Part shown: piece after piece, positions 1,462-13,214 of the stretch
Layout: each line of letters starts with the position of its first letter
Numbering within the stretch: the first letter of the stretch is position 1
IMG/VR virus record: IMGVR_UViG_3300029064_000011
From: a virus
Taxonomy: Duplodnaviria > Heunggongvirae > Uroviricota > Caudoviricetes
DNA: 13,214 bases
Direction: 5' to 3' (one strand)
Position numbers and translations under genes: made by a program
The notes under the pieces: generated by a model
The model's database searches: none
The model's input: the letters and a program-made list of their open reading frames with translations, nothing else
What the model was told of the DNA's origin: nothing

Positions 1462-2062
1462 ATATGTCCTTTTATCACCACAGCAAGACAACCCATTGAT
1501 TTAATTAAACAACCCACACTGCAAAAAGTGCTAAAAACAGCAAATTGACTACACCATTAACTACACCGTTCGGTGCACTGTATGAAACAACGTGGAACAA
1601 ATAGACACAAGAAATATACAGGCGGGTAATCTTTCCAGGGGGAAGCGCACCAATTCATGAGGGGCGTTAATGTCGATATGGGGATCCCCATAACGGGGCT
1701 ACCGGATTTTTTTTCCGGTTAACTGTTAATCAGGCTGGTGGGTTTTACCTGTTCGGTAGGAGTTATGATTATCGTAATACCTTTCCCCCAGTGGGGTAAA
1801 AGCTCCAACCGTAACGATGTTCGTTGTGGTTGCCTTGATGGTCTGCGTGGTCATTATGACCATTCAGAATATGAAGGGTGACGCTTCCGACTTCCTCAAA
1901 TTGAGGTTTCCGAAAATATCAGCGGGTTAGCGATTAATCTGACCATTAATTAAACTACGAAAATTTCGTAGTTTGTGAATATATTCCGGCCTTCTGATTA
2001 ACAGTCCTCAGATGTGAGGGATGTAGCCAGCGCAATTTTGCGTTATCGGGAATATCAGCAAG

Positions 2063-2344
2063 TTACCGCCGCAGCCGTTCCGGCTTCTTCCAGTGGTACG
2101 TTATTTTTTCTTTCTCCCGATACAGTTCAACGCGGCGATTGTAGGCCAGCATTTCAAGAACGCGGTTCCGTATGTTGCGCATATCAACGCCATTAAGTTC
2201 TATACCATCACGGCGCATCACTTCCGCTACAACACGCACATAATTTTCAGCGGTCACGCTGTCCGGCTGTGTGGCCTGTTCGTCATGCTGCTGGCTGATT
2301 CCGGCGACGCGGCGGATTAATCCCAGTAGTTCGGCTTCTGTCAT
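2063..2344 (-). CDS. Hypothetical protein, 93 aa, last island gene next to the left junction
   Basis: ORF with GGGGG Shine-Dalgarno 5 nt upstream of ATG at 2344. No family recognised. The overlapping + strand ORFs 2014..2196 and 2093..2320 are treated as antisense artefacts. Confidence 0.5.
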   Translation of the reverse strand: MTEAELLGLIRRVAGISQQHDEQATQPDSVTAENYVRVVAEVMRRDGIELNGVDMRNIRNRVLEMLAYNRRVELYREKEKITYHWKKPERLRR

Positions 2345-2374
2345 TGTGCCCCCATCGCTCTGATAGTCTGGTGT

Positions 2375-2575
2375 CGTCGGGTCCTTCCTGGAATTATGGC
2401 CCGTTACGGGGCGGCGACCTCGCGGTTTTTATCTGTTTATGAGAATTTTCCGGCAAAAGTCAGATCCGATCTTCTTCTCTGTAACAGACTGTTTAACAAT
2501 GAAAATATTAAAAAAAGAAAGGATCTGACACGAGGCATTTTAGCCAGAAAATGCCATTATCAGATCCTTTCTCAT
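2375..2575 (+). other. Lambda-type cos site, copy A (cosQ-like, cosN, full cosB-like region), + strand orientation
   Basis: 2399-2453 reads cccgttacggggcggcgacctcgcggtttttatctgtttatgagaattttccgg, closely matching the lambda cos junction as I remember it. Cohesive-end 12-mer GGGCGGCGACCT at 2408-2419. Upstream cgggtccttcctgg resembles lambda cosQ. Downstream has ttcttcttc, aaaagaaagga and nested inverted repeats (AAAGGATCTGA 2516-2526 / TCAGATCCTTT 2561-2571 around GGCATTTT-agccag-AAAATGCC 2534-2555) that parallel the lambda cosB region. Confidence 0.8.
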
Positions 2576-2599
2576 TTTTGTTCAATAATTGCGCGTCTG

Positions 2600-3142
2600 T
2601 TACTCGCCTTTCTTCTGTAGCAACTTTTCCGGTACGTTTCCGGTTGTTTCTTTCAAGTAATCAGCCAGTATCTGTGGGAGGTTGTCGGCAACTCTGGCAC
2701 TGGCATTACAGGCTTTAACCACTTCCCTTTTAAGCCTGTCCAGCATGGCGGGGGTAATCTGTGGGAAGCTCCTTTGCATAGTAAGCGGGAGGCTGTCCAT
2801 GATTGATGAAATCTGACTCGCCAGCTTTGAAAGCGCGTACAGGCAAAACTCAGTATCAATCACGTCACCGCGATCGCGATCGTTTTTAAGTTCCTGCGCC
2901 TCTGCCTGTGCTGTCAGTAATCTGATCCTGACTCGTAAAAGTTCATCATCGTCAATCTCGCCTTTGTCGTTTATAAGCTGGCTAATTGCATTGTTAACCC
3001 TATTTTCTATCACGCTGGCAACATCATAAAACGCCTCACGGCCTTTACGCTCAACGGGAGTTACTCCCCACTTGTCGAACGCTGTCGCACTTACACGGCA
3101 GCTTTTCGCCATGTTTTTTTTGTTCATCAGATGAGATTTCAT
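2600..3142 (-). CDS. terS: Terminase small subunit, lambda Nu1-like, 180 aa
   Basis: Same length class as Nu1 (181 aa). Central and C-terminal segments (LTAQAEAQELKNDRD..., FCLYALSKLASQISSIMDSLPLTMQRSFP, LKREVVKACN) align with the Nu1 segments LTRAQADAQELKNARD, FCTFVLSRIAGEIASILDGLPLSVQRRFP, LKRDIIKAMN from memory. The N-terminal HTH region is more divergent. ATG at 3140-3142. Confidence 0.88.
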   Translation of the reverse strand: MKSHLMNKKNMAKSCRVSATAFDKWGVTPVERKGREAFYDVASVIENRVNNAISQLINDKGEIDDDELLRVRIRLLTAQAEAQELKNDRDRGDVIDTEFCLYALSKLASQISSIMDSLPLTMQRSFPQITPAMLDRLKREVVKACNASARVADNLPQILADYLKETTGNVPEKLLQKKGE

Positions 3143-3143
3143 T

Positions 3144-3181
3144 AATACACCAACTTAATTACTGCTTCAGGTTGGTGTATT
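3144..3181. promoter_or_regulatory. Inverted repeat AATACACCAAC(N16)GTTGGTGTATT directly upstream of the terS start
   Basis: Perfect 11-bp arms at 3144-3154 and 3171-3181. In the minus-strand mRNA the proximal arm covers the SD-like GGTG just before the ATG. Could be a protein binding site or a translational hairpin. Confidence 0.4.
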
Positions 3182-3253
3182 GCTTGCATCTTTCCCTTTT
3201 CATTCATAAAGATAGATCAAACAACAAAACCACCACCACCACCCTGAAAAGGC

Positions 3254-3317
3254 TCATAAATAGCGAAAATCCGCGAGGTCGCCGCCCCGTAACGGGTCCA
3301 TATGCCGGAAAGGACCC
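3254..3317 (-). other. Lambda-type cos site, copy B (cosQ-like plus cosN, short divergent cosB), minus orientation, directly upstream of terS
   Basis: Minus strand reads tacgggtcctttccggcatatggacccgttacggggcggcgacctcgcggattttcgctatttatga. The ACGGGTCCTTTCCGG and GGGCGGCGACCTCGCGG blocks match lambda cosQ/cosN as I remember them. The 12-mer occupies 3276-3287 on the + strand as its reverse complement. Sequence diverges from lambda cosB after tatttatga. About 140 nt separate cosN from the terS ATG. Confidence 0.8.
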
Positions 3318-3319
3318 GT

Positions 3320-3343
3320 AAAAAAAGCCGGATTTCTCCGGCC
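3320..3343 (-). terminator. Rho-independent terminator after the 137-aa gene
   Basis: Minus strand GCCGGA-gaaa-TCCGGC hairpin (3327-3342) followed by a 7-U run (3320-3326). Confidence 0.55.
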
Positions 3344-3348
3344 TTGTC

Positions 3349-3762
3349 TCAGATGGTTTTCAGTATGCGCTCGATGTCGCCATCATCGCCCGGGTTTCTG
3401 CCGTCGTATGCCATGCCAGCTGAAACGGCTTGCGGGCTGTGCATGTCCATAAAGTTTTCAAAGGCTGCGGTAAGCTCCGGCGCAACCTTCTGGCGTTCCT
3501 GCTCTATGGTCATGCTAAGGATGCTTTTAGCCGTACCAACATCGATACAAGGCACGTTTGCCATTGCACGTAACAGCGGCTGATAGTCGTTATGCTCATG
3601 AAGCGCCATAATCGCATCAGCGCGCGGCTTGTCCTGCTCTTCCAGTTTGTTGAGTTGATATACGGCCTCGTAGGTTGATAAACCTCTGTCAGCCATTGCC
3701 CGCGCTTCGGCTTTAAATTTACTCGCCAGCGGTAGCGTCATGATGCTTTCATTCGTTGCCAT
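3349..3762 (-). CDS. Hypothetical head-module protein, 137 aa
   Basis: ORF with AGGGGGAA SD 3-4 nt upstream of ATG at 3762. Sits between the decoration-protein gene and cos copy B. No family recognised. Confidence 0.6.
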   Translation of the reverse strand: MATNESIMTLPLASKFKAEARAMADRGLSTYEAVYQLNKLEEQDKPRADAIMALHEHNDYQPLLRAMANVPCIDVGTAKSILSMTIEQERQKVAPELTAAFENFMDMHSPQAVSAGMAYDGRNPGDDGDIERILKTI

Positions 3763-3774
3763 CGTTCCCCCTGC

Positions 3775-4110
3775 TTATCGGGCCAGCGGCTGAACGGATA
3801 CGCCAGAACCCGCAAAGGCGGCGCATTTTTTCGCATCGGTGTCGACGCTCTCGGGCCAGTTCACGGCGGCGATATTAAAGATCCCCGTCTTGTAGCACTG
3901 TGCTGATTTCTGCTTTGACGTGTCCACGGGGTACGAAGTCAGATAAACAGCCTTTCCGGACGCCTGACCATCCCACGGCTTAAACTCGCCATTGTCCGCC
4001 AGCATCAGCGGGGTAAATTCCTGAATGACGCCAGCATCAGCGGCAAAATGTACCAGCGTCGTGGATACCTGCTGACTGCCTGCAAATAACTCAATGTATG
4101 GAGTGTTCAT
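3775..4110 (-). CDS. Head decoration protein, lambda gpD-like, 111 aa
   Basis: Motifs TPLMLAD, WDG, YKTGIF, NWPE and KKCAAFAGSG align with lambda gpD (TPLMLD, WDG, YKSGTF, WPE, KKRTAFAG) from memory. Similar length to gpD (110 aa). GGGGGA SD 5 nt upstream of the ATG. Confidence 0.8.
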   Translation of the reverse strand: MNTPYIELFAGSQQVSTTLVHFAADAGVIQEFTPLMLADNGEFKPWDGQASGKAVYLTSYPVDTSKQKSAQCYKTGIFNIAAVNWPESVDTDAKKCAAFAGSGVSVQPLAR

Positions 4111-4121
4111 AGAATCCCCCG

Positions 4122-5177
4122 TTAACCAATTTTGACGGTAACAAATTTGCGAATGTCTGCCGGCACCGGCTGCGGTGCGCTGTGCGTCTGCACGTACTCA
4201 ATCGCCGGATCGCCGTCCTCAATCCAGTTTTTCGGGTAGTACATGTTTTGCGTTGCGCCCGTTCTTACCGCTTCCTGATCCATAATCGCACCATAAGCAA
4301 CCAGCCCTTTATTGTTGGTGTTGCCCAAGACCAGCAAATCAGGCTCAAGGAAATGTTTTTCGGTGCCGTCGCTGTCGGCGTATTTGCCGGAATAGACGAT
4401 AAGGGCAATATCGCCCAGATAGCCTTTAAAGCTCACCACTTCGCCCAGGTTTTTACAGGCCAGTTCTGCGGCGGATTCTGAACCACGGGAAAGATCGTAC
4501 AGTTCGCGGAATTTTTTAAAGCTGCGTAACGTGCGCCATACCTCAGCGCCCATAATCATGACGTTTGCGGGGCAATTGCCCTGATCCGCATAAAGCTCGA
4601 TATCATAGATTGGATCGTGGGTTTCTTTGTCCTGCTCGGACCATTTACGGCCTTTGGCCTGCTCTATGATGTTGTTTTCCGGCATCTTCCAGTCGATTTC
4701 ATAGCGTTCTATGCCTTCGCCCTCAATGATGTTTTTTCCGGTCGTTACCGCATTTACCGCCAGCCATTCAACACGCGCTTTAATAGCGTTTACCTGGCGG
4801 CGCATGTTGCCAGTAATCAGGCGCATACGGCGATAGGTTGGGTCGTTAAGCTGTGCCGGATCTTCTCCAGCCATGCGCATGATGGTTTTTGTTGGATCGA
4901 TTTCGTGCTTTGGCTTCATGTAGCCAGGTTTAATCGTGCTGGTTTCGTACCCTTTATCGCGCTGTACCTGGCTACCAACCATAGGCGAGCAAAACGCTGA
5001 CATAGTGACTTCTTCGGTGTCCAGGTTATCCAGCATGATGTTTTGGGTGTTGAATGTCGCTACTTTCGGGAAAAACAGCGTGGTAAACAGCGGACTAAAT
5101 TTAAATTCCGCAATATCCCCGCGATTCAGGTACGCAAAAAGCTGGTGAGTGTTAAGTGCCGTTGCTTTGCCTGCCAT
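4122..5177 (-). CDS. Major capsid protein, lambda gpE-like, 351 aa
   Basis: Collinear similarity to lambda gpE over the full length as I remember it: FKFSPLF vs FKFDPLF, KPGYMKPKHEIDP vs TPGYVKPKHEVNP, DPTYRRMRLI vs DPAYRRRRII, WRTLRSFK vs WALFRSFK, SFKGYLGDIALIVYSGKY vs SYKGMYGDVAIVVYSGQY, YPKNWIEDGDPA vs YPKNWVTTGDPA. GGGGGTGA SD. Start overlaps the stop of the upstream 68-aa gene (TAATG). Confidence 0.92.
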   Translation of the reverse strand: MAGKATALNTHQLFAYLNRGDIAEFKFSPLFTTLFFPKVATFNTQNIMLDNLDTEEVTMSAFCSPMVGSQVQRDKGYETSTIKPGYMKPKHEIDPTKTIMRMAGEDPAQLNDPTYRRMRLITGNMRRQVNAIKARVEWLAVNAVTTGKNIIEGEGIERYEIDWKMPENNIIEQAKGRKWSEQDKETHDPIYDIELYADQGNCPANVMIMGAEVWRTLRSFKKFRELYDLSRGSESAAELACKNLGEVVSFKGYLGDIALIVYSGKYADSDGTEKHFLEPDLLVLGNTNNKGLVAYGAIMDQEAVRTGATQNMYYPKNWIEDGDPAIEYVQTHSAPQPVPADIRKFVTVKIG

Positions 5178-5383
5178 TATTCACCCCCATAATTTTTATG
5201 CATCCCAAGCGCCGCAAGTAAATAAGAGCGTACAAGTGAACCTATCGACGGCTCCGGCGTCATCAGCGGATCCAGTCCAGCCGCCACGCCAGCCTCATAG
5301 TTTTTTTTGTGGCGCTGCTTGAGCACCTCCACGATTTCGGGGCTTATGTACACCGAAACACCGCCTTTTTTCTCTTCAGCCAT
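5177..5383 (-). CDS. Hypothetical small protein, 68 aa, translationally coupled to the capsid gene
   Basis: ORF ending in TAA that shares one base with the capsid ATG. GAGGAA upstream of its ATG. First gene after the putative capsid-operon promoter. Function unknown. Confidence 0.5.
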   Translation of the reverse strand: MAEEKKGGVSVYISPEIVEVLKQRHKKNYEAGVAAGLDPLMTPEPSIGSLVRSYLLAALGMHKNYGGE

Positions 5384-5586: not shown

Positions 5587-5760
5587 TCTGCCTGCAAAGA
5601 TGTCGAACAAAAATTAACCATAACCATCATCTTTTTTGCATCAAAACAATTAAAAACAATAAATTACGCTCATGATGATGATGACGATAAAATCACAAAA
5701 ATGCGCTTTTTTCCGCGCCTCCCGCCCCGTGTTCAGGCCCACCCCGCCAGGAGGCCCCGT

Positions 5761-5782
5761 AAAAAAGCCGGATTGCTCCGGC
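5761..5782 (-). terminator. Rho-independent terminator after the SSB-like gene
   Basis: Minus strand GCCGGA-gcaa-TCCGGC hairpin (5767-5782) followed by 6 U (5761-5766). Nearly the same sequence module as the terminator at 3320-3343. Confidence 0.55.
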
Positions 5783-5798: not shown

Positions 5799-6221
5799 TT
5801 AAAACGGTATGTTATCCCCGTACGGATCATCATTCCCCGCCTGTTGTTTTGCCCTGTTCAGCGCGTCAGTAGCCTGGCCCTGTTGACCTTTTTTGCCGCC
5901 CAGTCGCGCCGTTCGCGCACTGATTACACTGTCTGCGATAACCTGCCAGCCCTGCCGCGTTTCTCCGTTCTGCCCAGTCCACTGGCTGATCTGCATGTTA
6001 CCCGCCACGCTCAGGAGTTCACCCTTGCGGTGCCTTTCCAGTGCTTCGGCCTGTCTGCCAAATGCCAGGACGGATAACCACATCGTCGCCGTTCCGTCAT
6101 CTGCCTGGCTGCACGGAAGGGGGACCGCCATACGTGCCAGCGTCATTGGTGTGCCCTTGCTGGTCTGTTTTACCTGCGGGTCGTCCACCAGCCGCCCGTA
6201 AGCTGCTATCTGTGCTGTCAT
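5799..6221 (-). CDS. Single-stranded DNA-binding protein (SSB-like), 140 aa
   Basis: Short OB-fold-like N-terminal region, Gly/Gln-rich linker, and the acidic C-terminal tail ending DDPYGDNIPF, typical of bacterial and phage SSBs (DDDIPF). ATG overlaps the stop of the upstream gene (ATGA). Confidence 0.75.
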   Translation of the reverse strand: MTAQIAAYGRLVDDPQVKQTSKGTPMTLARMAVPLPCSQADDGTATMWLSVLAFGRQAEALERHRKGELLSVAGNMQISQWTGQNGETRQGWQVIADSVISARTARLGGKKGQQGQATDALNRAKQQAGNDDPYGDNIPF

Positions 6222-6496
6222 GATTCCACCTCTCCGGTTTTAACGTTGATGGTTGTTACCTGTTCCGCTTCGGCAATCTCCCGCTCTGTCAGCGTGGCAA
6301 AATTTGCCGCCGTCGTGGTCATGAATGCGCTTATCAGTTCGGGATGTGCTTTCGCGTATCCTTCCCCCGCGTGGCGGTCTATCGTTCTGATTGCCACCTT
6401 TAAAGCGTGCTCTGTCATGTCTAACGCGCGATATTTCGGTTCTGTTCTGTCTCTGCGTTTTTTGAGTGATTTATTAAATTTCCCTGAAGTGTGCAT
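6218..6496 (-). CDS. Hypothetical protein, 92 aa
   Basis: ORF between the origin and the SSB gene, stop overlapping the SSB start. The SD is rather far from the ATG, so the start is uncertain. No family recognised. Confidence 0.45.
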   Translation of the reverse strand: MHTSGKFNKSLKKRRDRTEPKYRALDMTEHALKVAIRTIDRHAGEGYAKAHPELISAFMTTTAANFATLTEREIAEAEQVTTINVKTGEVES

Positions 6497-6543
6497 ATTT
6501 ATTTTTACCCCCTCGTTTAAAAAGTTTTGAGTTGTGCCTCCCC

Positions 6544-6772
6544 TTGTCTACCTTATCTACCTTAGTGGCCCTCATACCAGTAATGGCGCGGCTTTCAGCG
6601 GGGTAGAGTGCTTTTATCCACTATCTACCCCGTGTCTACCTCCCTGTCTGATTCAGGTAAAATCAGGTAGAGAGGGTAGATAGTGGGTAGACAGTAAAAA
6701 AAGGTTATCTACCTAACTTAATGCACTGAATTAAATGTATTTTTCTTTACTCAGGTAGACAGGGTAGACAGC
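6544..6772. repeat. Iteron array, putative replication origin
   Basis: At least 11 copies of GGTAGA(C/T)AG or its complement in both orientations (for example 6545-6552, 6554-6561, 6622-6629, 6632-6640, 6666-6672, 6674-6681, 6685-6693, 6705-6712, 6754-6762, 6764-6772), with an AT-rich stretch at 6693-6750. Lies immediately 3' of the primase-helicase gene. Confidence 0.7.
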
Positions 6773-6784
6773 AATTACAAAAAA

Positions 6785-8539
6785 TTATAAAAACGCGTCG
6801 CACTCGTCTGTTGTTATTGCGTTAGTCTGCGTTACTCCCTTAACTTTCCGCGTAATATATTCATGTCCGTAAACTTTCGCGGCTGGCTTCATAGCCTTGC
6901 CAAAGTCATTTACGTTTAGCGGTTTGCTCCTGCCTGCGTACGCCATAAACGCCAGATAGACGCGGTAAAGGCTGTTTCTGGTCGTGTACTTCACTGAATC
7001 GCCACCGCCGCCCATCATCAGGCCGCGTGCTTCCTCCAGAAAATTCAGGAACTGGCAAAACTCAATAACCGGATCCGTCTGTTGCTTTATTGCCAGAGCT
7101 TCATCACCGTCACGCTGTTCCAGTAGTAAAGCCCGTGCCTTCTCAGGGTCGGTAAAGTTCGCCAGCAATCGGCGGATAATGACAGGGATTTCAGCCGCGA
7201 TCTTTTCCGGTAGCTCCCTGTCTTTTTCGGCCTCACTGACGATATTGTCGAAACGGAAAATCACGCGACGACGTGCCACACCTCCGGCCCGTTCGGTGAA
7301 TATCATCGGGTTATTGTTGGTCGCCAGCACCACCGCCCTGATTACCGCCGTGAAACGCTTTTCGTATTTCGGGTTAATTTCCACGGGGTCACCGCCCGTG
7401 ATTTTCTTGATGCCCGTTCCTTCGCCTGTATATTTCGGCTGGTCAGCCAGGACGATAAGACGACTCCCGACAACCTGCGCACGTCCACCAGCATCATCAA
7501 GCGATGTCATTTCAGCGCTTACCGTGTTCTGTTTCCCTGCCAGAAGGCTAGCTATGTGTGTGAATGTACTTTTACCGCTCCCGCCGTCTCCGGTGGCCTC
7601 AATAAACATCTGCCAGTCGTACCGGTTCGCCATAATCATGTACAGCGCGGCACATATACGCATCATCTTGCGCGGGTCTTTTCCGGCTGCGTGCTCAAGC
7701 CATTTATGAAAGTTTGGCGCGTTATCGCGGATGTTCTCCCCTGGTGCTGGTGGCGTGTACTCAATGCCGTTGTGCGTGGTGATCCAGTTCTCCGGCGTGT
7801 GCGGGGAAAATTCCCCCGTTTTCAGGTCAAGCGCACCATTGGCGAACGGCAACAAATCGCCGGACGGCTCGCCCATTGGTTCGGCAATAACTTTTAACGC
7901 TTCCACGGCGTTATTGATTACGCGCTTGCTGAAAGTGGCCCTGTGCTCTGAATAGATCGCCACCATTTCGCGGCTAAGTTCCATTGTGCTGACCGGACAC
8001 CATACCCCGCCGCGCCATACGTGAACGATTTCACTTTCAGGATGTACGCAAACGCCATCAAAGCGATCGGCAAGCAGCTGCGCGCGCTCACTGTCCGCCA
8101 TCTGCGAAAGTTGCGCCTTTTGCTTTACCGGAAGCTCAATGACCAGACCATCAGAAAGATTCTGGCGCTCACGGGCCAGATATTCGCGCCAGTTCTCCAC
8201 CTTCTGACCGTGCATACCATCAGGGTAAAAATTTGCATCCTGTACGCCTGCCGCCGCCAGCTTCTGACCAATCGCCTTTATCATTACTGGCGCAAGATAT
8301 CCGGCCCTGAATATGCGCACGGATTTTCTGCCTTCCGGCACAATTTGCAGCTTATCCAGTTCGGATAACTGCTGCTCCCCAAGCCACACAGGAGTCTCAT
8401 TATCTCCGGCCATACGCGCGTCATGTTCCTGCCATTGTTTTGCGTGTGACCAGGCATCACTACCCGCAAAAATAATGACTTCTGTTTCTTTGTGTTTTAT
8501 GCCGCGTGACTGCTGTTTTACGTTCGGTGCCAGTTTCAT
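6785..8539 (-). CDS. Primase-helicase replication initiator (P4-family phage/plasmid primase C-terminal domain with D5-like NTPase), 584 aa
   Basis: Walker A TGDGGSGKST and Walker B-like RLIVLADQ in the C-terminal half. Domain order and size are typical of satellite pri-rep proteins. Origin iterons directly downstream. Start overlaps the upstream 99-aa ORF. Confidence 0.88.
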   Translation of the reverse strand: MKLAPNVKQQSRGIKHKETEVIIFAGSDAWSHAKQWQEHDARMAGDNETPVWLGEQQLSELDKLQIVPEGRKSVRIFRAGYLAPVMIKAIGQKLAAAGVQDANFYPDGMHGQKVENWREYLARERQNLSDGLVIELPVKQKAQLSQMADSERAQLLADRFDGVCVHPESEIVHVWRGGVWCPVSTMELSREMVAIYSEHRATFSKRVINNAVEALKVIAEPMGEPSGDLLPFANGALDLKTGEFSPHTPENWITTHNGIEYTPPAPGENIRDNAPNFHKWLEHAAGKDPRKMMRICAALYMIMANRYDWQMFIEATGDGGSGKSTFTHIASLLAGKQNTVSAEMTSLDDAGGRAQVVGSRLIVLADQPKYTGEGTGIKKITGGDPVEINPKYEKRFTAVIRAVVLATNNNPMIFTERAGGVARRRVIFRFDNIVSEAEKDRELPEKIAAEIPVIIRRLLANFTDPEKARALLLEQRDGDEALAIKQQTDPVIEFCQFLNFLEEARGLMMGGGGDSVKYTTRNSLYRVYLAFMAYAGRSKPLNVNDFGKAMKPAAKVYGHEYITRKVKGVTQTNAITTDECDAFL

Positions 8540-8835
8540 TTTTTACCCCTGAATCCGTTAATCATGGTTTTCGGCTTCTGGATGTTTGCCCGTGCCCTGG
8601 CGTTGCTGGTGGACACGTTATGCGGCGCGGTCTGTACCAGAGAAAAATCACGCCGGAACTGATAAACAGGCATCACGCAATCATATTCGTAACCTTCACG
8701 GCGGTAGGTTACGCGCCGTTCTTCCACGCCCTTAATCATTACCGTGCCGCCGTACTGGTCGCGGTAAATATCGCCGCGCGTAAATTTAGGGTGAGTGTTG
8801 CCACTGGCAGTTAAGCCAGAATATTTAAGTTTCAT
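8536..8835 (-). CDS. Hypothetical protein, 99 aa
   Basis: ORF with GGAGAA SD. Stop overlaps the primase start. Confidence 0.5.
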   Translation of the reverse strand: MKLKYSGLTASGNTHPKFTRGDIYRDQYGGTVMIKGVEERRVTYRREGYEYDCVMPVYQFRRDFSLVQTAPHNVSTSNARARANIQKPKTMINGFRGKK

Positions 8836-9875: not shown

Positions 9876-10095
9876 GTACCCCTCCGCATTTTTTTTCGTT
9901 AGAAATAAGCGTTCTTCTTTCCTGTTCATCGCTCAGGAATACGCAGACCTCACCGCTAAGGCGTTTAAGTAAGCCGATGATTGCCCCTGATTCGCTGTCG
10001 GTCATCATGCCAGGGTAATCCTCTGCCAGTGCGCAAATAACTTCGATTTGGTGGGCGCGTTCTGCTGCCTGTTGTAGTGTGATTTCCTGGCTCAT
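9865..10095 (-). CDS. Hypothetical protein, 76 aa
   Basis: ORF with GGGGGTAGG SD. Its ATG overlaps the stop of the upstream 66-codon reading frame (ATGA). Confidence 0.45.
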   Translation of the reverse strand: MSQEITLQQAAERAHQIEVICALAEDYPGMMTDSESGAIIGLLKRLSGEVCVFLSDEQERRTLISNEKKCGGVHVQ

Positions 10096-10292
10096 AAGCC
10101 TACCCCCTGACGAATACGGGCAGCAAATACCATCACGCAGCCAGCCGGAGATTGCTGGCGTGCTTCCTGTTCGCTGGTGGCCTCAATGGTAATCACGCGC
10201 GGTTGTGCCGTGCTCAGGGCGATAAAACGCCAGATGTATTTATTCAGGTTGTGCGAGTCCCGCCCTTGCGGGTGTGTGGTATGATTTCTCAT
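10092..10292 (-). CDS. Hypothetical protein, 66 aa, candidate first gene of the leftward operon
   Basis: ATG at 10290-10292 preceded by GAGGTAG. Stop overlaps the start of the 76-aa gene. This is the C-terminal in-frame part of the 428-codon ORF 10092..11378. Starts about 95 bp from the operator cluster. Confidence 0.4.
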   Translation of the reverse strand: MRNHTTHPQGRDSHNLNKYIWRFIALSTAQPRVITIEATSEQEARQQSPAGCVMVFAARIRQGVGL

Positions 10293-11378
10293 AGCTACCT
10301 CGATACTTTCGCTATCGTTGGTGGTTAGAAGCCCGGTTAGTGTTAGCGCACTGCCGGGTTTCGTCGTTTCTGCACCTTGCGCCAACAAGGTGTTGAACAC
10401 CAATTTAAACCCAGGTGTTAAACACGTCAAGTGTTGAACACTTATTTTTTTTCCTGCATACTGCATTTGTTTTTTATGAGGGGTACACCACATGGCGACA
10501 AAAGCGGTAAACGCAAAATCACAAACCGTTGCGGCAAGGGTTCCGCATGAAGTTATGAACAATGTTGAGGCGGTAAAAATGCCTGGCGAAAGTACGGGGC
10601 AATTTGTTACTGCGGCATTAAAACGAGAAGTTGAATATCGCCAGCGGCGCAAGGCCAAAGAACCAGAGTAATCACCATCAGCGCCGTGGTGTAAGGTATT
10701 ACGGCGCATTGCTATGCAGGACAACACAATGACCGATAAAGAATTGACCAAAACATTATCACCGGCACGGAAAAGACGGCGCAGAAAGATAGAGCATGAA
10801 TCAGAAAGATTCGCGCCATGTGCTTTTGCCCTTGAGCAATTCCTTAAAGAGTACAGGGAAAAGCGCTCATTGCAGGTATGGCAACGAACTGAACCAGACT
10901 GATTGCATTGCCCACCAGCCGCAAATGTGGCATTGTTGGCAATGCTCATGCGTTGGGGATAACGTGTAGCTTGTGTCGAGGGGCCACCGTAGCGGGTGGC
11001 CTTTGTTTTGCCCGTTATTCGGCAATTGTGGCGCTTCTCCACATGGTTGATATAATCCCACTGCTCAGATTCATTTTTTGCGCAGTAGGTTAATTGTTCA
11101 CAAAGGCGCTCCGGCAACGGGGCGCTTTTTGTTTTTATTAGTTTGTAGAAACCTGACTCAGAGATAATGCTCATATTCTGATTGCCGTCAGGGGTGTAAG
11201 TTAAATTTACTCCCTTTTTATCATCAAACATCTGCAACGCTCTGGCGTTAACAATATTGGTTTCACTCCCGCCAGTAAGGCCGGAAATAACCGGAATAAT
11301 TTCGGCAAAATTTTGCAGATTCTGTTTTTCAGGACGAACGAAGCCCCGCCCTTGTTCGGGAGAATATCCAGTATTCAT
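10092..11378 (-). CDS. 428-codon ORF, probably not one real gene; N-terminal roughly 115 codons resemble a BRO-N/antirepressor-like domain, the middle overlaps the + strand RHH cassette
   Basis: N-terminal part contains ISESGFYKLIKTKSAP, reminiscent of the BRO-N motif I-E-G-LY-LI-S-P. The rest has skewed Cys/Ser/Thr-rich composition and runs antisense through operators, the RHH gene and two + strand terminators. Weak SD at the 11378 ATG. Confidence 0.25.
   Translation of the reverse strand: MNTGYSPEQGRGFVRPEKQNLQNFAEIIPVISGLTGGSETNIVNARALQMFDDKKGVNLTYTPDGNQNMSIISESGFYKLIKTKSAPLPERLCEQLTYCAKNESEQWDYINHVEKRHNCRITGKTKATRYGGPSTQATRYPQRMSIANNATFAAGGQCNQSGSVRCHTCNERFSLYSLRNCSRAKAHGANLSDSCSIFLRRLFRAGDNVLVNSLSVIVLSCIAMRRNTLHHGADGDYSGSLALRRWRYSTSRFNAAVTNCPVLSPGIFTASTLFITSCGTLAATVCDFAFTAFVAMWCTPHKKQMQYAGKKISVQHLTCLTPGFKLVFNTLLAQGAETTKPGSALTLTGLLTTNDSESIEVAMRNHTTHPQGRDSHNLNKYIWRFIALSTAQPRVITIEATSEQEARQQSPAGCVMVFAARIRQGVGL
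10388..10442. promoter_or_regulatory. Three palindromic operator-like sites in a divergent promoter region
   Basis: GGTGTT-G-AACACC (10388-10400), GTGTT-A-AACAC (10414-10424) and AAGTGTT-G-AACACTT (10428-10442). The third overlaps a candidate rightward promoter: -35 TTGAAC (10433-10438), 17-nt spacer, -10 CATACT (10456-10461). Confidence 0.6.
10491..10670 (+). CDS. Ribbon-helix-helix (Arc/CopG-like) DNA-binding protein, 59 aa
   Basis: Not in the ORF track because it is under 60 aa; translated by hand as MATKAVNAKSQTVAARVPHEVMNNVEAVKMPGESTGQFVTAALKREVEYRQRRKAKEPE. The N-terminal strand-like RVPHEV followed by two helices is the classic RHH pattern. GAGGGG SD. The operator cluster lies immediately upstream. 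Confidence 0.6.
10714..10902 (+). CDS. Small, very basic hypothetical protein (58-62 aa), second gene of the + strand cassette
   Basis: ORF track entry 10714..10902. An AGGA SD favours the second ATG at 10729 (MTDKELTK...). Contains an RKRRRRK tract. Followed by an intrinsic terminator. Confidence 0.4.
   Translation: MQDNTMTDKELTKTLSPARKRRRRKIEHESERFAPCAFALEQFLKEYREKRSLQVWQRTEPD
10982..11009 (+). terminator. Rho-independent terminator of the + strand RHH cassette
   Basis: GGCCACC-gtagcg-GGTGGCC hairpin (10982-11001) followed by TTTGTTTT. Confidence 0.55.
11106..11136 (+). terminator. Second + strand rho-independent terminator
   Basis: GCGCTCCG-GCAA-CGGGGCGC hairpin (8 bp including one G-U pair, GNRA-like tetraloop) followed by TTTTTGTTTTT. 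Confidence 0.55.
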
Positions 11379-11430: not shown

Positions 11431-11619
11431 TTAGTGAACTGCCTCGCAGCTGTCCTTCCATGCCAGAACTTCGGATAAAGACCAGCCAACGGAACGACCG
11501 CCCAGCTTACGCCGTGATGGGAATTGTCCGGCTTTTTCCAGGCGGTACCGACATGAGCGGCTCAGGCCTGTAAGTTGCTGACATTCTTTTTCACGTATAA
11601 AGCGATCTGTGCTTAACAC
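11431..11619 (-). CDS. alpA: AlpA-family transcriptional regulator (excisionase-like HTH), 62 aa, GTG start
   Basis: Pattern LTGLSRSCRYRLEKAGQFPSRRKLGGRSVGWSLSEVLAW fits the Phage_AlpA family (TG-SR-T-Y, FP-P-LG-RSVGW, E-W). AAGGGGGAA SD 4-5 nt upstream of the GTG. Positioned next to the integrase as in PICIs and P4-like islands. Confidence 0.8.
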   Translation of the reverse strand: MLSTDRFIREKECQQLTGLSRSCRYRLEKAGQFPSRRKLGGRSVGWSLSEVLAWKDSCEAVH

Positions 11620-11900
11620 AATTCCCCCTTTGTTGTTTCTTAAAGAGTCATTGGGTGGATTATTGGGTTGGGTTGTGTCGGATTGTGTCAGGGTGTTTGT
11701 GGAATGGCAAACACTGGCGGCGGTCGTTTTACAGAAGCAGGGGGAATGAGAATAAAAACTCTTTTAATTCATTATGATGCAAAGGCATAAAATTTTACTT
11801 TTACGCCTTTTTTACATATTTTTAAGAGTGATTCGCCAGTGTATAAAAAAACAGTACACCTATAAAAATCAAATGGTTATTACGATGGCTGATTTTTAAC

Positions 11901-11960
11901 CCGTTGTTCCATTTTGTTCCTTGTTGTTCGTCGTTGTGTCTCGTTGTTTCACGTTGTCCG
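11901..11960. repeat. Six tandem 10-bp direct repeats (consensus TCGTTGTTYC) between int and alpA
   Basis: Perfectly phased units ccgttgttcc, attttgttcc, ttgttgttcg, tcgttgtgtc, tcgttgtttc, acgttgtccg. A related GT-rich pair (gggttgtgtc, ggattgtgtc) lies at about 11667-11686. Confidence 0.55.
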
Positions 11961-11984
11961 CATCCTGAAAAATCGCAAAAAAAA

Positions 11985-13214
11985 TTATATTTCTCTGGCT
12001 ATTGGCAATGTGGTTACGTTTTCATGTGTTCCCGCCAGTATCCCTAACCGCTCCGTCCACATATCCAGCGCGTCACGTTTCGCATCCAGATAACGGGAAT
12101 GGTTATAGACTCGTTGCATCCCTGGCATCTGATGACCTGTAAGCTGCTCCACGACGTGAGGATCCACGCCTAAATCGTTCAGCATCGTTGTAAAGGTGCG
12201 CCGGATGTCATGCAGTGACCAGTGAGGGTGTTTTAGCCTCCTGTGCGCTAATCTGCCGTACTGCGACACGCTTGTTTCCTGTTTCACTTCCCCCAGCAAT
12301 AAGCCCGTGTGCCTGTTCTGCTCCACCAGCTGCGTGACGAACGGCAGTATTGCTTCCGGTATGGGCCGGAATATTGCCACCTTCGTTTTGCTGTGTTCTT
12401 TCGGCACGGTCCAGAGCATTTCGGTAAAATCCCACTCGCTGATCTCCGATAACCTCAGTTCTACCGTCCGGCATCCGAAAACAATCAGGAGGCGGATTAG
12501 TGCGACGTAGTAAGGGGAAAATATTTTTTTGTCCAGTGCCTGCAATAATTCGCCAAGTTCTTTGGTGCTTAAGACACGCTCGCTTATATCCGGTTTTTTC
12601 CCAACGTCCGCCACACTCATATCATCAAGAACGTTGCTGATTGCATAGCGCCGCCTCCGGCAGAACTTAAGCGCCTGTTTGCACGTCTGTAGCAAGAATC
12701 CGGCAGTAACAGGCGTTCGCTTTGCCACCTGGTCAAAACAGGCCAGCCAGTGCCGTAGCTCGCATTTATCCAGCGGCATAGCACCAATGTGCTGTATTAC
12801 GTGATTATTAAGGCGCTTTTTCAGGGCGGCATAATCCACGCGGTTTTCCTTTACGTAAGACTCAAGCCAGTAGGTAAGCGCATCGCCAACCGTTACGGGC
12901 TTTAACGCTTTCTGTACGGTGTAATTCATCTCATGACGTGGATTTTTCCCCTCAGCAAGCCAAGCGCGACACTGTGCCGCTTTTTCCCTGGCAGCTTTCA
13001 GACTCAGATCAGGATAATTTCCCAGCTTAATCCGTTCCGGTCGTGCTCCCCTTCCCGTTCCGGCCCTGTAGGTGAAATACCAGGTTAAAAGGCCGCTGGT
13101 TGAATGCCTGACGCTCAGGTTTCCACCGTCATTAAGAAAGGCTGTTTTTTGGGCGGGTGTGCCGTTGATTTTCCTCAGCTGTGTATCGCTCAGTTTGTTA
13201 AGTGCTCTGCTCAT
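11985..13214 (-). CDS. int: Tyrosine recombinase, P4-type integrase, 409 aa; start codon at the last window base
   Basis: N-terminal arm-binding domain pattern (LSDTQLRK, NDGGNLSV, WYFTYR, LGNYPDLSLKAAREK) typical of P4-like integrases. C-terminal catalytic motifs HDIRRTF and RVYNHSRY. The N-terminal pattern suggests the ATG at 13212-13214 is the true start. Confidence 0.93.
   Translation of the reverse strand: MSRALNKLSDTQLRKINGTPAQKTAFLNDGGNLSVRHSTSGLLTWYFTYRAGTGRGARPERIKLGNYPDLSLKAAREKAAQCRAWLAEGKNPRHEMNYTVQKALKPVTVGDALTYWLESYVKENRVDYAALKKRLNNHVIQHIGAMPLDKCELRHWLACFDQVAKRTPVTAGFLLQTCKQALKFCRRRRYAISNVLDDMSVADVGKKPDISERVLSTKELGELLQALDKKIFSPYYVALIRLLIVFGCRTVELRLSEISEWDFTEMLWTVPKEHSKTKVAIFRPIPEAILPFVTQLVEQNRHTGLLLGEVKQETSVSQYGRLAHRRLKHPHWSLHDIRRTFTTMLNDLGVDPHVVEQLTGHQMPGMQRVYNHSRYLDAKRDALDMWTERLGILAGTHENVTTLPIAREI

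What the first reader, a model, noticed from the sequence alone, without database searches (positions are those of the whole stretch)
2063..5383. Satellite carrying its own lambda-type capsid shell, decoration protein and small terminase, but no visible portal, large terminase, protease or tail genes
Within a PICI/P4-like backbone the island encodes clear homologues of lambda gpE, gpD and Nu1 plus cos. The gene order (small ORF, E-like, D-like, 137-aa ORF, cos, Nu1-like) is not the lambda order, so this is not simply a decayed lambdoid prophage. Classical Gram-negative PICIs are described as lacking capsid genes, and capsid-forming PICIs as encoding a fuller set (portal, protease, both terminase subunits). 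An island with only shell, decoration and TerS suggests an intermediate strategy: build its own, perhaps smaller, shell around helper portal and scaffold, and recruit helper TerL through its own TerS. The island unit of about 11.7 kb is far below lambda headful limits, which fits capsid size redirection.
Basis: partly seen in the sequence, partly recalled or inferred. Interest (0 to 1): 0.85.

Follow-up and report, generated by a model that had tools for sequence, protein, structure and literature searches.

The report
Known E. coli phage satellite, TerS variant
This is the packaging end of a well-known type of E. coli phage satellite (an EcCICFT073-family PICI), whose capsid and decoration genes were published and knocked out years ago, so the finding is largely a rediscovery with a few new details.

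Summary
Window 2063-5383 (minus strand) encodes clear homologues of lambda gpE, gpD and Nu1, plus exact lambda cosN. No portal, TerL, protease or tail genes lie in the island or beyond its integrase in syntenic genomes.

The novelty claim is wrong. The island sits at the same phoQ/roxA site as EcCICFT073, the model Gram-negative PICI, with the same gene order. Its capsid protein is 94% identical and its 137-aa protein 96% identical. EcCICFT073's capsid (c1499) and decoration (c1500) genes were reported in 2018. Deleting them did not relieve interference, packaged DNA was phage-sized, and a c1498-c1501::cas9 replacement still transfers. Capsid genes occur in 21 of 29 reference Gram-negative PICIs.

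The real difference is that a full-length Nu1/N15-type TerS replaces RppA between two inverted cos sites. This TerS form is common: 766 of 5,426 complete E. coli genomes, against 97 for rppA.

New details:
- The 137-aa ORF is homologous to the C-terminal domain of the Nu3 scaffold protein.
- The capsid genes are under purifying selection.
- The terS and rpp cassettes swap next to identical capsid blocks.

The function of the capsid genes remains open.

The parts
1543..1617 (.). attL: left copy of the island's flanking direct repeat; the island starts here, just after phoQ (1-1461)
   Evidence: In the syntenic locus L001 a 75-nt direct repeat flanks the island at a spacing of 11,422 bp. Its core ACTACACCATTAACTACACC is at window 1548-1567. 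attR lies just beyond the window end.
2063..2344 (-). 93-aa conserved ORF of unknown function, the last gene of the island (by gene order probably c1504 of EcCICFT073)
   Evidence: phrog_1561, E=2.7e-58. No Pfam, NCBIfam, PDB or PADLOC hit. dN/dS 0.13-0.15. 100% identical to the O157:H7 JEONG-1266 copy.
2378..2453 (+). cos2: second cos site, inverted relative to cos1 (cosN 2409-2420). Its right side is lambda-like.
   Evidence: Exact cosN match. 76-nt inverted repeat with 3243-3318. 31 of 46 identical to lambda over bp 35-80. In EcCICFT073 cos2 is not required for transfer (PMC6739421).
2600..3142 (-). terS: full-length Nu1/N15-type small terminase, occupying the position that rppA holds in EcCICFT073
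   Evidence: Pfam Phage_Nu1, 82.6 bits; phrog_57, E=8e-53. 44% identical to N15 gp1 and 36% to lambda Nu1. DNA-binding domain 54% identical to N15 against 35% to lambda. No similarity to RppA. dN/dS about 0.12. Found in 766 of 5,426 E. coli genomes.
3143..3275 (-). Candidate cosB of cos1. It contains (GGT)4-5 followed by GTTGTTTGAT at lambda-style bp 46-71 (window 3217-3242), which resembles the R3 site of N15.
   Evidence: Alignment of cos regions. N15 left end. Rpp-type islands diverge from about bp 35 and carry (ACC)4 instead. Binding by TerS is inferred, not tested.
3276..3342 (-). cos1: cosN (3276-3287), cosQ-like GGGTCCT (3311-3317) and a terminator-like hairpin (3318-3342) just downstream of the 137-aa gene
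   Evidence: Same position as the essential cos1 of EcCICFT073 (PMC6739421).
3349..3762 (-). 137-aa protein homologous to the C-terminal domain of the Nu3 scaffold (by gene order probably c1501 of EcCICFT073)
   Evidence: phrog_1999, E=6e-65, and phrog_53 protease C-terminus, E=5.5e-8. Lambda Nu3 hits phrog_1999 at 2.7e-26 and the N15 gp6 scaffold (also 137 aa) at 1.3e-24. The alignment shows a shared motif and C-terminus. 96% identical to the CFT073 copy. dN/dS 0.16-0.23.
3775..4110 (-). gpD-like head decoration protein (c1500 homologue)
   Evidence: Pfam HDPD, E=5.6e-18. PDB hits to decoration-protein structures 1td0 and 1c5e. dN/dS 0.035-0.12.
4122..5177 (-). gpE-like major capsid protein (c1499 homologue)
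   Evidence: Pfam Phage_cap_E, E=4e-50. 94% identical to CFT073 c1499. PDB 3bqw, E=2e-227, and lambda gpE 7vi9, E=8e-84. No more than 47% identical to any phage in the collection. dN/dS 0.09-0.14.
5177..5383 (-). 68-aa conserved ORF whose stop overlaps the start of the capsid gene (by gene order probably c1498)
   Evidence: phrog_3255, E=8.5e-46. No other hits. A small ORF overlaps the capsid gene start in Salmonella and Edwardsiella relatives too.
5715..5782 (-). Degenerate third cos-like copy (hairpin, GGGGCCT, then ACGGGGCGGGAGGCGCGG) downstream of ssb. With the hairpin and cosQ of cos1 it brackets the 68-E-D-137 cassette as a direct repeat.
   Evidence: The 31-nt direct repeat is 2,441 bp apart in L001.
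5799..8835 (-). Replication module: SSB (5799-6221), 92-aa ORF (6218-6496), D5_N/DUF5906 primase (6785-8539), DUF4222 protein (8536-8835)
   Evidence: Same order as in EcCICFT073.
11431..13214 (-). alpA regulator (11431-11619) and tyrosine integrase (11985-13214) at the far end of the island
   Evidence: Pfam Phage_AlpA, E=3e-18; Arm-DNA-bind_3 plus Phage_integrase.

Best explanation
The region is the 'late zone' of an EcCICFT073-family Gram-negative phage-inducible chromosomal island (PICI) of about 11.7 kb, integrated between phoQ and roxA.

By analogy with EcCICFT073 (inferred), a lambdoid helper phage triggers alpA-driven excision and primase-driven replication into concatemers. The helper supplies portal, protease, TerL, tails and, in tested cases, the shell itself.

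Packaging specificity comes from a cassette between two inverted cos sites. EcCICFT073 has RppA there, which rewires the helper's TerS. This island has its own full-length Nu1/N15-type TerS.

The inferred TerS mechanism has three steps:
1. Its N15-like winged-helix domain binds an N15-R3-like cosB next to cos1.
2. Its Nu1-like C-terminal region docks the helper's TerL.
3. Island concatemers are then cut at a lambda-type cosN and packaged, probably as about four copies per full-size head.

The 68aa-E-D-Nu3-like cassette is a conserved, selected satellite module. Its products most likely join head assembly with some natural helpers. In the near-identical EcCICFT073 module, though, it was not needed for lambda interference or for lambda/phi80-mediated transfer.
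For: Family membership (shown):
- Same att site, gene order and 94-96% protein identity with EcCICFT073.
- int, alpA, primase and cos are all present.
- att repeats flank the island and roxA follows int.

The terS and rpp cassettes are interchangeable (shown):
- Strain 142 has a 100% identical capsid block but carries RppA.
- O157:H7 JEONG-1266 has a 100% identical terS and 93-aa gene.
- cos1 sequences are shared up to about bp 34 and then split by cassette type.

TerS is intact and full length (shown):
- It aligns along its whole length to Nu1 and to N15 gp1.
- dN/dS is about 0.12.

The capsid cassette is selected and satellite-specific (shown):
- dN/dS is 0.04-0.23.
- It is no more than 47% identical to any phage capsid protein, but 50-95% identical to homologues found in other Enterobacterales, where the contexts examined are PICIs.

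Published experiments on the homologous module:
- PMC6092414, PMC10530653, PMC6739421, PMC10111431.
Against: - No experiment exists, in the literature searched, on a TerS-type E. coli PICI. TerS-cosB binding, TerS-TerL docking and independence from the helper's TerS are all inferred.
- The TerS C-terminal region is only 34-41% identical to the lambda, N15 and 21-type TerS proteins, so the cognate helper TerL cannot be named.
- Strong purifying selection on E, D and the Nu3-like gene sits uneasily with their dispensability in the lab. They may therefore have an important role that lambda/phi80 assays miss.
- The N15-like R3 motif in cos1 is shifted by about 8 bp relative to N15.
Confidence: 0.72

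Rival explanations
1. The island builds its own, smaller shell from its E-like, D-like and (as found here) Nu3-like proteins around the helper's portal. It packages single 11.7-kb genomes, an intermediate between classical and capsid-forming PICIs.
For: - A coherent trio of shell, decoration and scaffold-like genes is kept intact under purifying selection.
- The capsid gene lineage is long diverged from phage capsid genes.
- SaPIbov5 Ccm and PmCI172 are precedents cited in PMC6092414.
- Only lambda, phi80 and one resident prophage have been tested as helpers.
Against: - For the 94-96% identical EcCICFT073 module, all packaged DNA was phage-sized.
- Deleting c1499 or c1500 had no effect on interference.
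- Deleting rppA alone restored lambda plating.
- The c1498-c1501::cas9 island still transduces.
- 4 x 11.7 kb fits a full head.
Confidence: 0.15
2. The capsid cassette is a backup or legacy of the helper-embedded lifestyle. Relatives integrate inside helper head genes (E, portal) and carry their own copies, which can substitute for or buffer the interrupted helper gene. In chromosomal islands the cassette persists through frequent recombination with such elements.
For: - Relatives within the same capsid gene lineage lie inside a helper's E gene (L013), a portal gene (L010) and a prophage late region (L007).
- The idea was proposed in PMC10111431.
- Extensive mosaicism is seen between islands.
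Against: - The helper gene is restored on satellite excision, and the same paper notes the redundancy is not essential.
- 43-47% identity to helper gpE makes simple substitution uncertain.
- The cassette is present in 598 of 5,426 complete E. coli genomes; in the chromosomal islands examined (L001, L004, L005, L006) it shows dN/dS of about 0.1.
Confidence: 0.15
3. It is a decaying lambdoid prophage remnant, and the E, D and Nu1 genes are inert relics.
For: The genes belong to lambda families, and lab deletions show no phenotype.
Against: - Gene order is not that of lambda.
- All genes are intact in six loci, with dN/dS of 0.04-0.23.
- The element is bounded by att repeats and has its own integrase, alpA and primase.
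- No phage in the collection is more than 47% identical.
- Close relatives are experimentally mobile PICIs.
Confidence: 0.02
4. The capsid cassette is an anti-phage interference module. It poisons head assembly of non-helper lambdoid phages and so protects the host.
For: - PICIs commonly carry defence genes that target virion assembly (PMC11364771).
- A Nu3 C-terminal domain without a protease could compete for the capsid interior.
Against: - No PADLOC hit.
- Deleting rppA alone restored lambda titres almost fully, and expressing the other post-ori genes did not inhibit lambda.
Confidence: 0.08

Closest known systems
EcCICFT073, the model Gram-negative cos-type PICI of E. coli CFT073 (Fillol-Salom et al. 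2018, 2019)
   Same: - Same integration site next to phoQ.
- Same order: int-alpA-...-DUF4222-primase-SSB-68aa-capsid-decoration-137aa-cos1-[specificity gene]-cos2-93aa.
- Capsid protein 94% and 137-aa protein 96% identical.
- Two inverted lambda-type cosN sites.
   Different: - The specificity gene between the cos sites is a 180-aa Nu1/N15-type TerS, not the 144-aa RppA; the two share no similarity.
- The cosB side of cos1 differs from about bp 35.
- CFT073 also has a PerC gene that is absent here.
Capsid-forming PICIs (cf-PICI, e.g. EcCIEDL933)
   Same: Both are integrase/alpA/primase satellites that carry a capsid gene and a TerS.
   Different: cf-PICIs also encode portal, maturation protease, head-tail connectors, HNH and TerL, and they make their own small capsids. 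None of these genes is present here.
Phage N15 / lambda packaging and head module (cos-TerS-TerL-W-portal-protease/Nu3-D-E)
   Same: - Lambda-type cosN is identical.
- TerS is 44% identical to N15 gp1, with an N15-like DNA-binding domain and an N15-R3-like cosB motif.
- E, D and Nu3 homologues are all present.
   Different: - The order is E-D-Nu3-like-cos-TerS rather than cos-TerS...Nu3-D-E.
- There is no TerL, W, portal or protease.
- The Nu3-like gene stands alone and is not nested in a protease gene.
- All proteins are at most 47% identical to the phage versions.
Helper-embedded PICIs and the Gram-negative PICI 'late zone' (Tommasini, Mageeney & Williams 2023)
   Same: That paper describes a dynamic late zone that holds captured phage late genes, most often the capsid gene. 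Relatives within this island's capsid gene lineage are helper-embedded.
   Different: This island is chromosomal, between phoQ and roxA, and not inside a prophage.
SaPI TerS strategy (pac-type SaPIs) and SaPIbov5 Ccm
   Same: The concept is shared. A satellite's own TerS redirects the helper's TerL to satellite DNA, and a satellite capsid-protein homologue exists.
   Different: - SaPIs are Gram-positive, and their TerS-encoding members use headful (pac) packaging, whereas this island uses cos.
- Ccm causes small capsids, whereas the EcCICFT073 capsid homologue has no such effect with lambda.

Membership tests
Gram-negative PICI (EcCICFT073 type) | Tyrosine integrase at one end; a specific chromosomal att site with flanking direct repeats | tested here: met
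   The integrase domains are present. The att repeat is seen in L001, and its core is at window 1548-1567. The phoQ/roxA site is shared with CFT073 and O157:H7.
Gram-negative PICI (EcCICFT073 type) | alpA regulator after int, with genes transcribed mostly in one direction | tested here: met
   Phage_AlpA, E=3e-18. All assigned genes are on the minus strand.
Gram-negative PICI (EcCICFT073 type) | Own primase/replication module | tested here: met
   D5_N + DUF5906 + Pox_D5 primase, plus SSB. The origin itself was not mapped.
Gram-negative PICI (EcCICFT073 type) | Small size (about 10-15 kb), with no lysis or tail genes and only a partial set of head genes | tested here: met
   About 11.7 kb. No such families were hit.
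Gram-negative PICI (EcCICFT073 type) | Helper-type cos site plus a packaging-specificity gene (Rpp or TerS) | tested here: met
   Two exact cosN copies. A Nu1-type TerS.
Gram-negative PICI (EcCICFT073 type) | Induction by a helper phage and high-frequency transfer | not testable with these tools
   Shown only for EcCICFT073 in the literature (PMC6092414).
Capsid-forming PICI (cf-PICI) | Encodes portal, head maturation protease, head-tail connectors, TerL (and HNH) as well as a capsid protein | tested here: not met
   No ORF hits these families. The flanks are phoQ and, in syntenic genomes, roxA.
P4-like satellite | Sid/Psu/Delta capsid-size and transactivation genes alongside a P4 alpha-type primase | tested here: not met
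   A P4-family primase domain is present, but none of the 20 ORFs scanned hits a Psu, Sid or Delta family. The PICI authors separate these families.
Lambda Nu1-type small terminase | Full-length match to the family, covering the N-terminal winged-helix domain and the C-terminal region | tested here: met
   Phage_Nu1, 82.6 bits against a cut-off of 30. phrog_57 covers residues 1-174. End-to-end alignments to Nu1 and N15 gp1.
Lambda Nu1-type small terminase | Gene lies immediately downstream of cosN and cosB | tested here: met
   The start codon is at lambda-style bp 146. The equivalents are 191 in lambda, 89 in N15 and 102 for PICI-C rpp.
Lambda Nu1-type small terminase | Binds cognate cosB and the large terminase | not testable with these tools
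   Inferred from homology only.
Rpp (redirecting phage packaging) proteins | Sequence homology to RppA/B/C (PDB 6hlk) | tested here: not met
   There is no alignment to RppA and no PDB hit. The protein in the same position in strain 142 hits 6hlk at 2e-31.
Lambda gpE major capsid protein (HK97 fold) | Full-length homology to Phage_cap_E and to solved gpE-type structures | tested here: met
   PDB 3bqw, E=2e-227, and 7vi9, E=8e-84.
Lambda gpD decoration protein | Homology to HDPD and to solved gpD/SHP structures | tested here: met
Lambda Nu3 / N15 gp6 scaffolding protein | Homology of the C-terminal domain shared by Nu3 and the gpC protease | tested here: met
   Lambda Nu3 and N15 gp6 hit the 137-aa protein's own family, phrog_1999, at 2.7e-26 and 1.3e-24. 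The reciprocal hit to phrog_53 is 5.5e-8. Alignment. Pairwise BLAST alone is not significant.
Lambda Nu3 / N15 gp6 scaffolding protein | Encoded in frame within the 3' part of the protease gene, and acts as a scaffold | tested here: not met
   It is a stand-alone gene with no protease gene present. Scaffold activity is untested.
Defective lambdoid prophage | Lambda gene order, with remnants of other late and early genes and signs of decay | tested here: not met
   The order differs. The genes are intact and under purifying selection.

The most novel reading that the evidence does not exclude
With natural helpers other than lambda and phi80, the island's E-like, D-like and Nu3-like proteins would assemble satellite-specific capsids, possibly smaller, on the helper's portal. 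The island's own TerS would load them without any helper TerS. That would be a true intermediate between classical PICIs (all parts stolen) and capsid-forming PICIs (only tails stolen). It would also explain why a module that is dispensable in the lab is so strongly conserved.
Probability: 0.15. Interest if true: 0.7.

Novelty: new member of a known kind. Interest (0 to 1): 0.3.

Why it matters
As stated, the finding is a rediscovery. The capsid and decoration genes of this PICI family were published, knocked out and, for the capsid protein, apparently crystallised (PDB 3bqw, E=2e-227).

Three things remain worth noting:
- The TerS form seen here is about eight times more common in complete E. 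coli genomes than the experimentally studied RppA form (766 against 97 genomes). It occurs in O157:H7 and Nissle 1917, yet I found no experimental study of it.
- It predicts a testable difference: transfer should not depend on the helper's TerS.
- A shell, decoration and scaffold-like trio under strong purifying selection, with no known phenotype, is a real open question in satellite biology. Recognising the 137-aa gene as Nu3-like sharpens that question.

These islands also carry virulence regulators and are used as delivery vehicles. Knowing which cassette sets packaging specificity therefore has practical value.

Tried and rejected
- A single-sequence AlphaFold model of the 137-aa protein was unusable (mean pLDDT 41), so I ran no fold search.
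- An exhaustive HMMER search with the 137-aa protein found only 9 relatives. The link to Nu3 came from PHROG profiles instead.
- PDB sequence searches for TerS, the 137-aa, the 93-aa and the 68-aa proteins gave nothing useful.
- NCBIfam and PADLOC gave no hits for the six proteins.
- Rfam found no RNA family in the window, and there are no tRNA genes.
- A genome-contig scan with the single capsid protein returned nothing, because the peptide patterns were too specific. I used the search for homologous proteins and the look-up of encoding contigs instead.
- Literature searches for 'PICI + Nu3' and 'PICI + Nissle' returned only noise.
- The promoter and terminator scan was not above shuffled expectation.
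- I rejected the decayed-prophage reading, the P4-like classification, cf-PICI membership and the idea that the 180-aa protein is a divergent Rpp.

Full report
**What is in the sequence**

The window starts with phoQ (1-1461, + strand). The rest is one island whose assigned genes all lie on the minus strand, ending with alpA (11431-11619) and a tyrosine integrase (11985-13214).

- The 351-aa protein matches Pfam Phage_cap_E (E=4e-50). It is 43% identical to lambda gpE over its full length.
- The 111-aa protein matches the gpD family (E=6e-18) and is 36% identical to gpD.
- The 180-aa protein matches Phage_Nu1 at 82.6 bits against a cut-off of 30. It aligns end to end with lambda Nu1 (36%) and N15 gp1 (44%).
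- The lambda cohesive-end 12-mer occurs exactly twice, where 0.04 is expected by chance. One copy is upstream of terS in the lambda orientation (3276-3287, minus strand). The other is an inverted copy downstream of terS (2409-2420). Both lie within a 76-nt inverted repeat.

No ORF hits portal, large terminase, protease or tail families.

**Island boundaries and what lies beyond the window**

In the closest full-length relative (96.9% identity over 96% of the island), a 75-nt direct repeat flanks the element at a spacing of 11.4 kb. Chromosomal roxA follows the integrase directly.

The repeat core is at window 1548-1567. The island here is therefore about 11.7 kb. The same phoQ/roxA flanks occur in strain 142 and in O157:H7 JEONG-1266.

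In these syntenic genomes that condition is not met.

**It is an EcCICFT073-family PICI**

E. coli CFT073 carries, at the same phoQ-adjacent site, an island with the same order: DUF4222, primase, SSB, 68-aa ORF, major capsid protein, head decoration protein, 137-aa ORF, a 144-aa ORF, 93-aa ORF. The capsid protein is 94% identical to the window's and the 137-aa protein is 96% identical.

This CFT073 island is EcCICFT073, the model Gram-negative PICI. The published record on it is as follows:
- The 2018 description names c1499 as a putative capsid protein and c1500 as a head decoration protein. Deleting either did not restore lambda plating (PMC6092414).
- A synthetic EcCICFT073 in which c1498-c1501 are replaced by cas9 is still transduced from a phi80 delta-cos lysogen (PMC10530653).
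- A later survey states that a capsid gene is present in 21 of 29 reference Gram-negative PICIs, is not required for helper-assisted transfer, and lies in a 'dynamic late zone' of captured phage late genes (PMC10111431).
- The PDB holds a structure, 3bqw ('putative capsid protein of prophage', 351 aa), that matches the window protein at E=2e-227.

I infer the mapping of c1498, c1501 and c1504 onto the 68-, 137- and 93-aa ORFs from gene order alone.

**What differs: TerS in place of Rpp**

In EcCICFT073 the gene between the two cos sites is c1503, rppA. Its product binds the helper's TerS and redirects it to the island's cosB (PMC6739421).

The window's 180-aa protein shows no similarity to RppA or to the RppC structure. 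It is a complete Nu1-type TerS.

Three comparisons show that the two genes behave as swappable cassettes:
- Strain 142 has a capsid block 100% identical in DNA to the window's. In the terS position it carries a 146-aa protein that is 98% identical to RppA and hits PDB 6hlk at 2e-31.
- O157:H7 JEONG-1266 has a terS and a 93-aa gene 100% identical to the window's, with a capsid block that differs.
- The cos1 regions of all the islands agree up to about bp 34 from the nick, then split by cassette type. TerS-type islands read (GGT)4-5 followed by GTTGTTTGAT. Rpp-type islands read (ACC)4.

The TerS DNA-binding domain is 54% identical to that of N15 gp1, against 35% for lambda. The terS-type cosB resembles the single R3 site of N15, GAGGTTGTTGTTTAAT at bp 48-63 (R3 limits from PMC9026076). 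The region that aligns to Nu1's C-terminal TerL-binding part is present, with 40% identity over residues 99-166.

I therefore infer that this TerS binds the island's own cosB and recruits the helper's TerL directly. This is the logic of the pac-type SaPIs applied to a cos system. If so, the island should not need the helper's TerS, whereas EcCICFT073 does. This is inference, and I found no experimental work on a TerS-type E. coli PICI. The 2018 paper only notes that some Gram-negative PICIs contain a terS homologue.

The TerS form is the commoner one. The terS gene is in 766 of 5,426 complete E. coli genomes, including O157:H7, Nissle 1917 and ATCC 25922. rppA is in 97 (rppB and rppC were not counted).

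**The 137-aa ORF is Nu3-like**

Its own PHROG family is phrog_1999 (E=6e-65). Lambda Nu3 hits that family at E=2.7e-26 (Nu3 residues 117-200). The N15 scaffold gp6, itself 137 aa long, hits it at E=1.3e-24. In the other direction, the 137-aa protein hits the C-terminal part of the head-protease family phrog_53 at 5.5e-8.

A multiple alignment shows a shared motif (R..AIMAL.E....y..L...MA.vPg.....Ak.iL) and a shared extreme C-terminus. Pairwise BLAST alone is not significant, so the link rests on profiles.

The first ~45 residues are unrelated to Nu3, and there is no protease domain. The island thus encodes shell, decoration and a scaffold-type capsid-binding domain. I found no mention of this homology in the searchable literature.

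**The head genes are not relics**

Across the window and five other islands, every gene of the module is intact. Pairwise dN/dS values are:
- capsid protein: 0.09-0.14
- decoration protein: 0.035-0.12
- Nu3-like protein: 0.16-0.23
- TerS: about 0.12
- 93-aa ORF: 0.13-0.15
- 68-aa ORF: 0.15-0.39

No phage in a 50,697-genome collection has a capsid protein more than 47% identical, or a TerS more than 44% identical. By contrast, proteins 50-95% identical to the capsid protein occur in E. coli, Salmonella, Edwardsiella, Lelliottia, Serratia and Cedecea.

The contexts I examined are all PICIs:
- A Salmonella island reads int-alpA-primase-E-D-Nu1.
- An E. coli island reads E-D-(AlpA-like)-Nu1-91aa.
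- Helper-embedded islands sit inside a prophage portal gene, a prophage capsid gene or a prophage late region.

The E-D-(x)-cos-TerS/Rpp layout is thus a widespread, long-standing satellite module. It is not a recent capture and not a one-off. The capsid block itself is in 598 of 5,426 complete E. coli genomes.

**How it most likely works**

Shown:
- family membership
- intactness of the genes and selection on them
- cassette exchange between terS and rpp
- cos anatomy

Taken from experiments on the near-identical EcCICFT073:
- helper-dependent induction through alpA
- concatemeric replication
- packaging into full-size helper heads
- dispensability of the capsid block for lambda interference and for lambda/phi80-mediated transfer

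Inferred:
- The island's TerS binds the N15-R3-like cosB and docks the helper's TerL.
- Terminase cuts at cos1.
- About four island copies (46.8 kb) fill a lambda-size head. Three copies (35 kb) would be about 72% of the lambda genome, which from general knowledge of lambda packaging limits is probably too little.

The role of the E/D/Nu3-like trio is unresolved. My best guess is that its products take part in head assembly with some natural helpers, affecting compatibility or helper range. The 'inert relic' reading is contradicted by the selection data.

**Verdict**

The finding describes a known kind of element whose capsid genes have already been noted, deleted and structurally characterised. 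The proposed capsid-size mechanism conflicts with published data on a 94-96% identical module.

The island itself is a new mosaic member of the family. The useful additions from this analysis are:
- the Nu3-like identity of the 137-aa gene
- the terS/rpp cassette exchange between inverted cos sites
- the N15-like specificity of the TerS form
- evidence that the TerS form, which I found unstudied, is the common one in E. coli

Noticed in passing
window 5715-5782 (-) and 3311-3342 (-): A terminator-like hairpin plus a cosQ-like motif occurs twice as a direct repeat. One copy is just after ssb, followed by a degenerate cosN-like ACGGGGCGGGAGGCGCGG. The other is just before cos1. Together they bracket the 68aa-E-D-137aa cassette, which suggests the cassette was gained or can be lost by recombination at cos-like sequences.
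   Followed up: partly
L004:10169-10260 (+) (strain 142, cos2): In this RppA-type island, cos2 carries the exact 16-nt N15 R3 sequence GAGGTTGTTGTTTAAT at bp 48-63, the same spacing as in phage N15. The flanking sequence resembles the region upstream of terS in TerS-type islands. It looks like the footprint of a former inverted terS cassette, or a second packaging specificity.
   Followed up: partly
window 2409-2500 (+) (cos2): The right side of cos2 is closer to lambda than that of cos1 (31 of 46 identical over bp 35-80, against 24 of 46), including the TTTATGAGAATTTTCCGG and CCGATCTTCTTC stretches. cos2 of CFT073 instead resembles the cos of its resident 21-like prophage. The second cos sites may mimic helper cos sites.
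   Followed up: partly
window 3217-3242 (-) versus L002:7603-7625 (+): The candidate R3 region holds a (GGT)n run in TerS-type islands and the complementary (ACC)n run in Rpp-type islands, at nearly the same distance from cosN.
   Followed up: no
window 10092-11378 (-): A 428-aa ORF with no family hit and odd composition spans the region where related islands are annotated with short Icd-like genes. It overlaps opposite-strand small ORFs (10492-10671 and 10714-10902, + strand; YlcI/YnfO-like in relatives). It is probably not a real 428-aa protein. This is the variable zone between alpA and the replication genes.
   Followed up: no
L007 (NZ_CM143727.1 4640660-4660207): A related island (capsid block 81% identical in DNA, with a 146-aa ORF, not further checked, in the rpp/terS position) is embedded inside a prophage. 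It lies between FI/head-tail-joining genes and contractile-tail genes, an example of a helper-embedded PICI. Its Nu3-like gene is shorter, at 115 aa.
   Followed up: partly
L012:10402-10746 and L013:10402-10746: In the capsid-gene lineage that is 55% identical to the window protein, the gene after the decoration gene is a 114-aa AlpA/excisionase-like protein rather than the Nu3-like protein. The third position of the cassette is therefore variable.
   Followed up: no
window 2063-5383 as a whole: The window is a recombinant. Its capsid block (3349-5383) is 100% identical to strain 142, which has RppA and a RepA-type helicase. Its terS and 93-aa gene are 100% identical to O157:H7 JEONG-1266. No complete genome in the collection matches the whole island (best is 96.9% identity over 96%).
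   Followed up: yes
L009:11452-11604 (Salmonella PICI): A Hok/Gef toxin gene sits directly after the Nu1-type terS in a Salmonella relative, and a second integrase gene lies between the primase and the capsid cassette.
   Followed up: no
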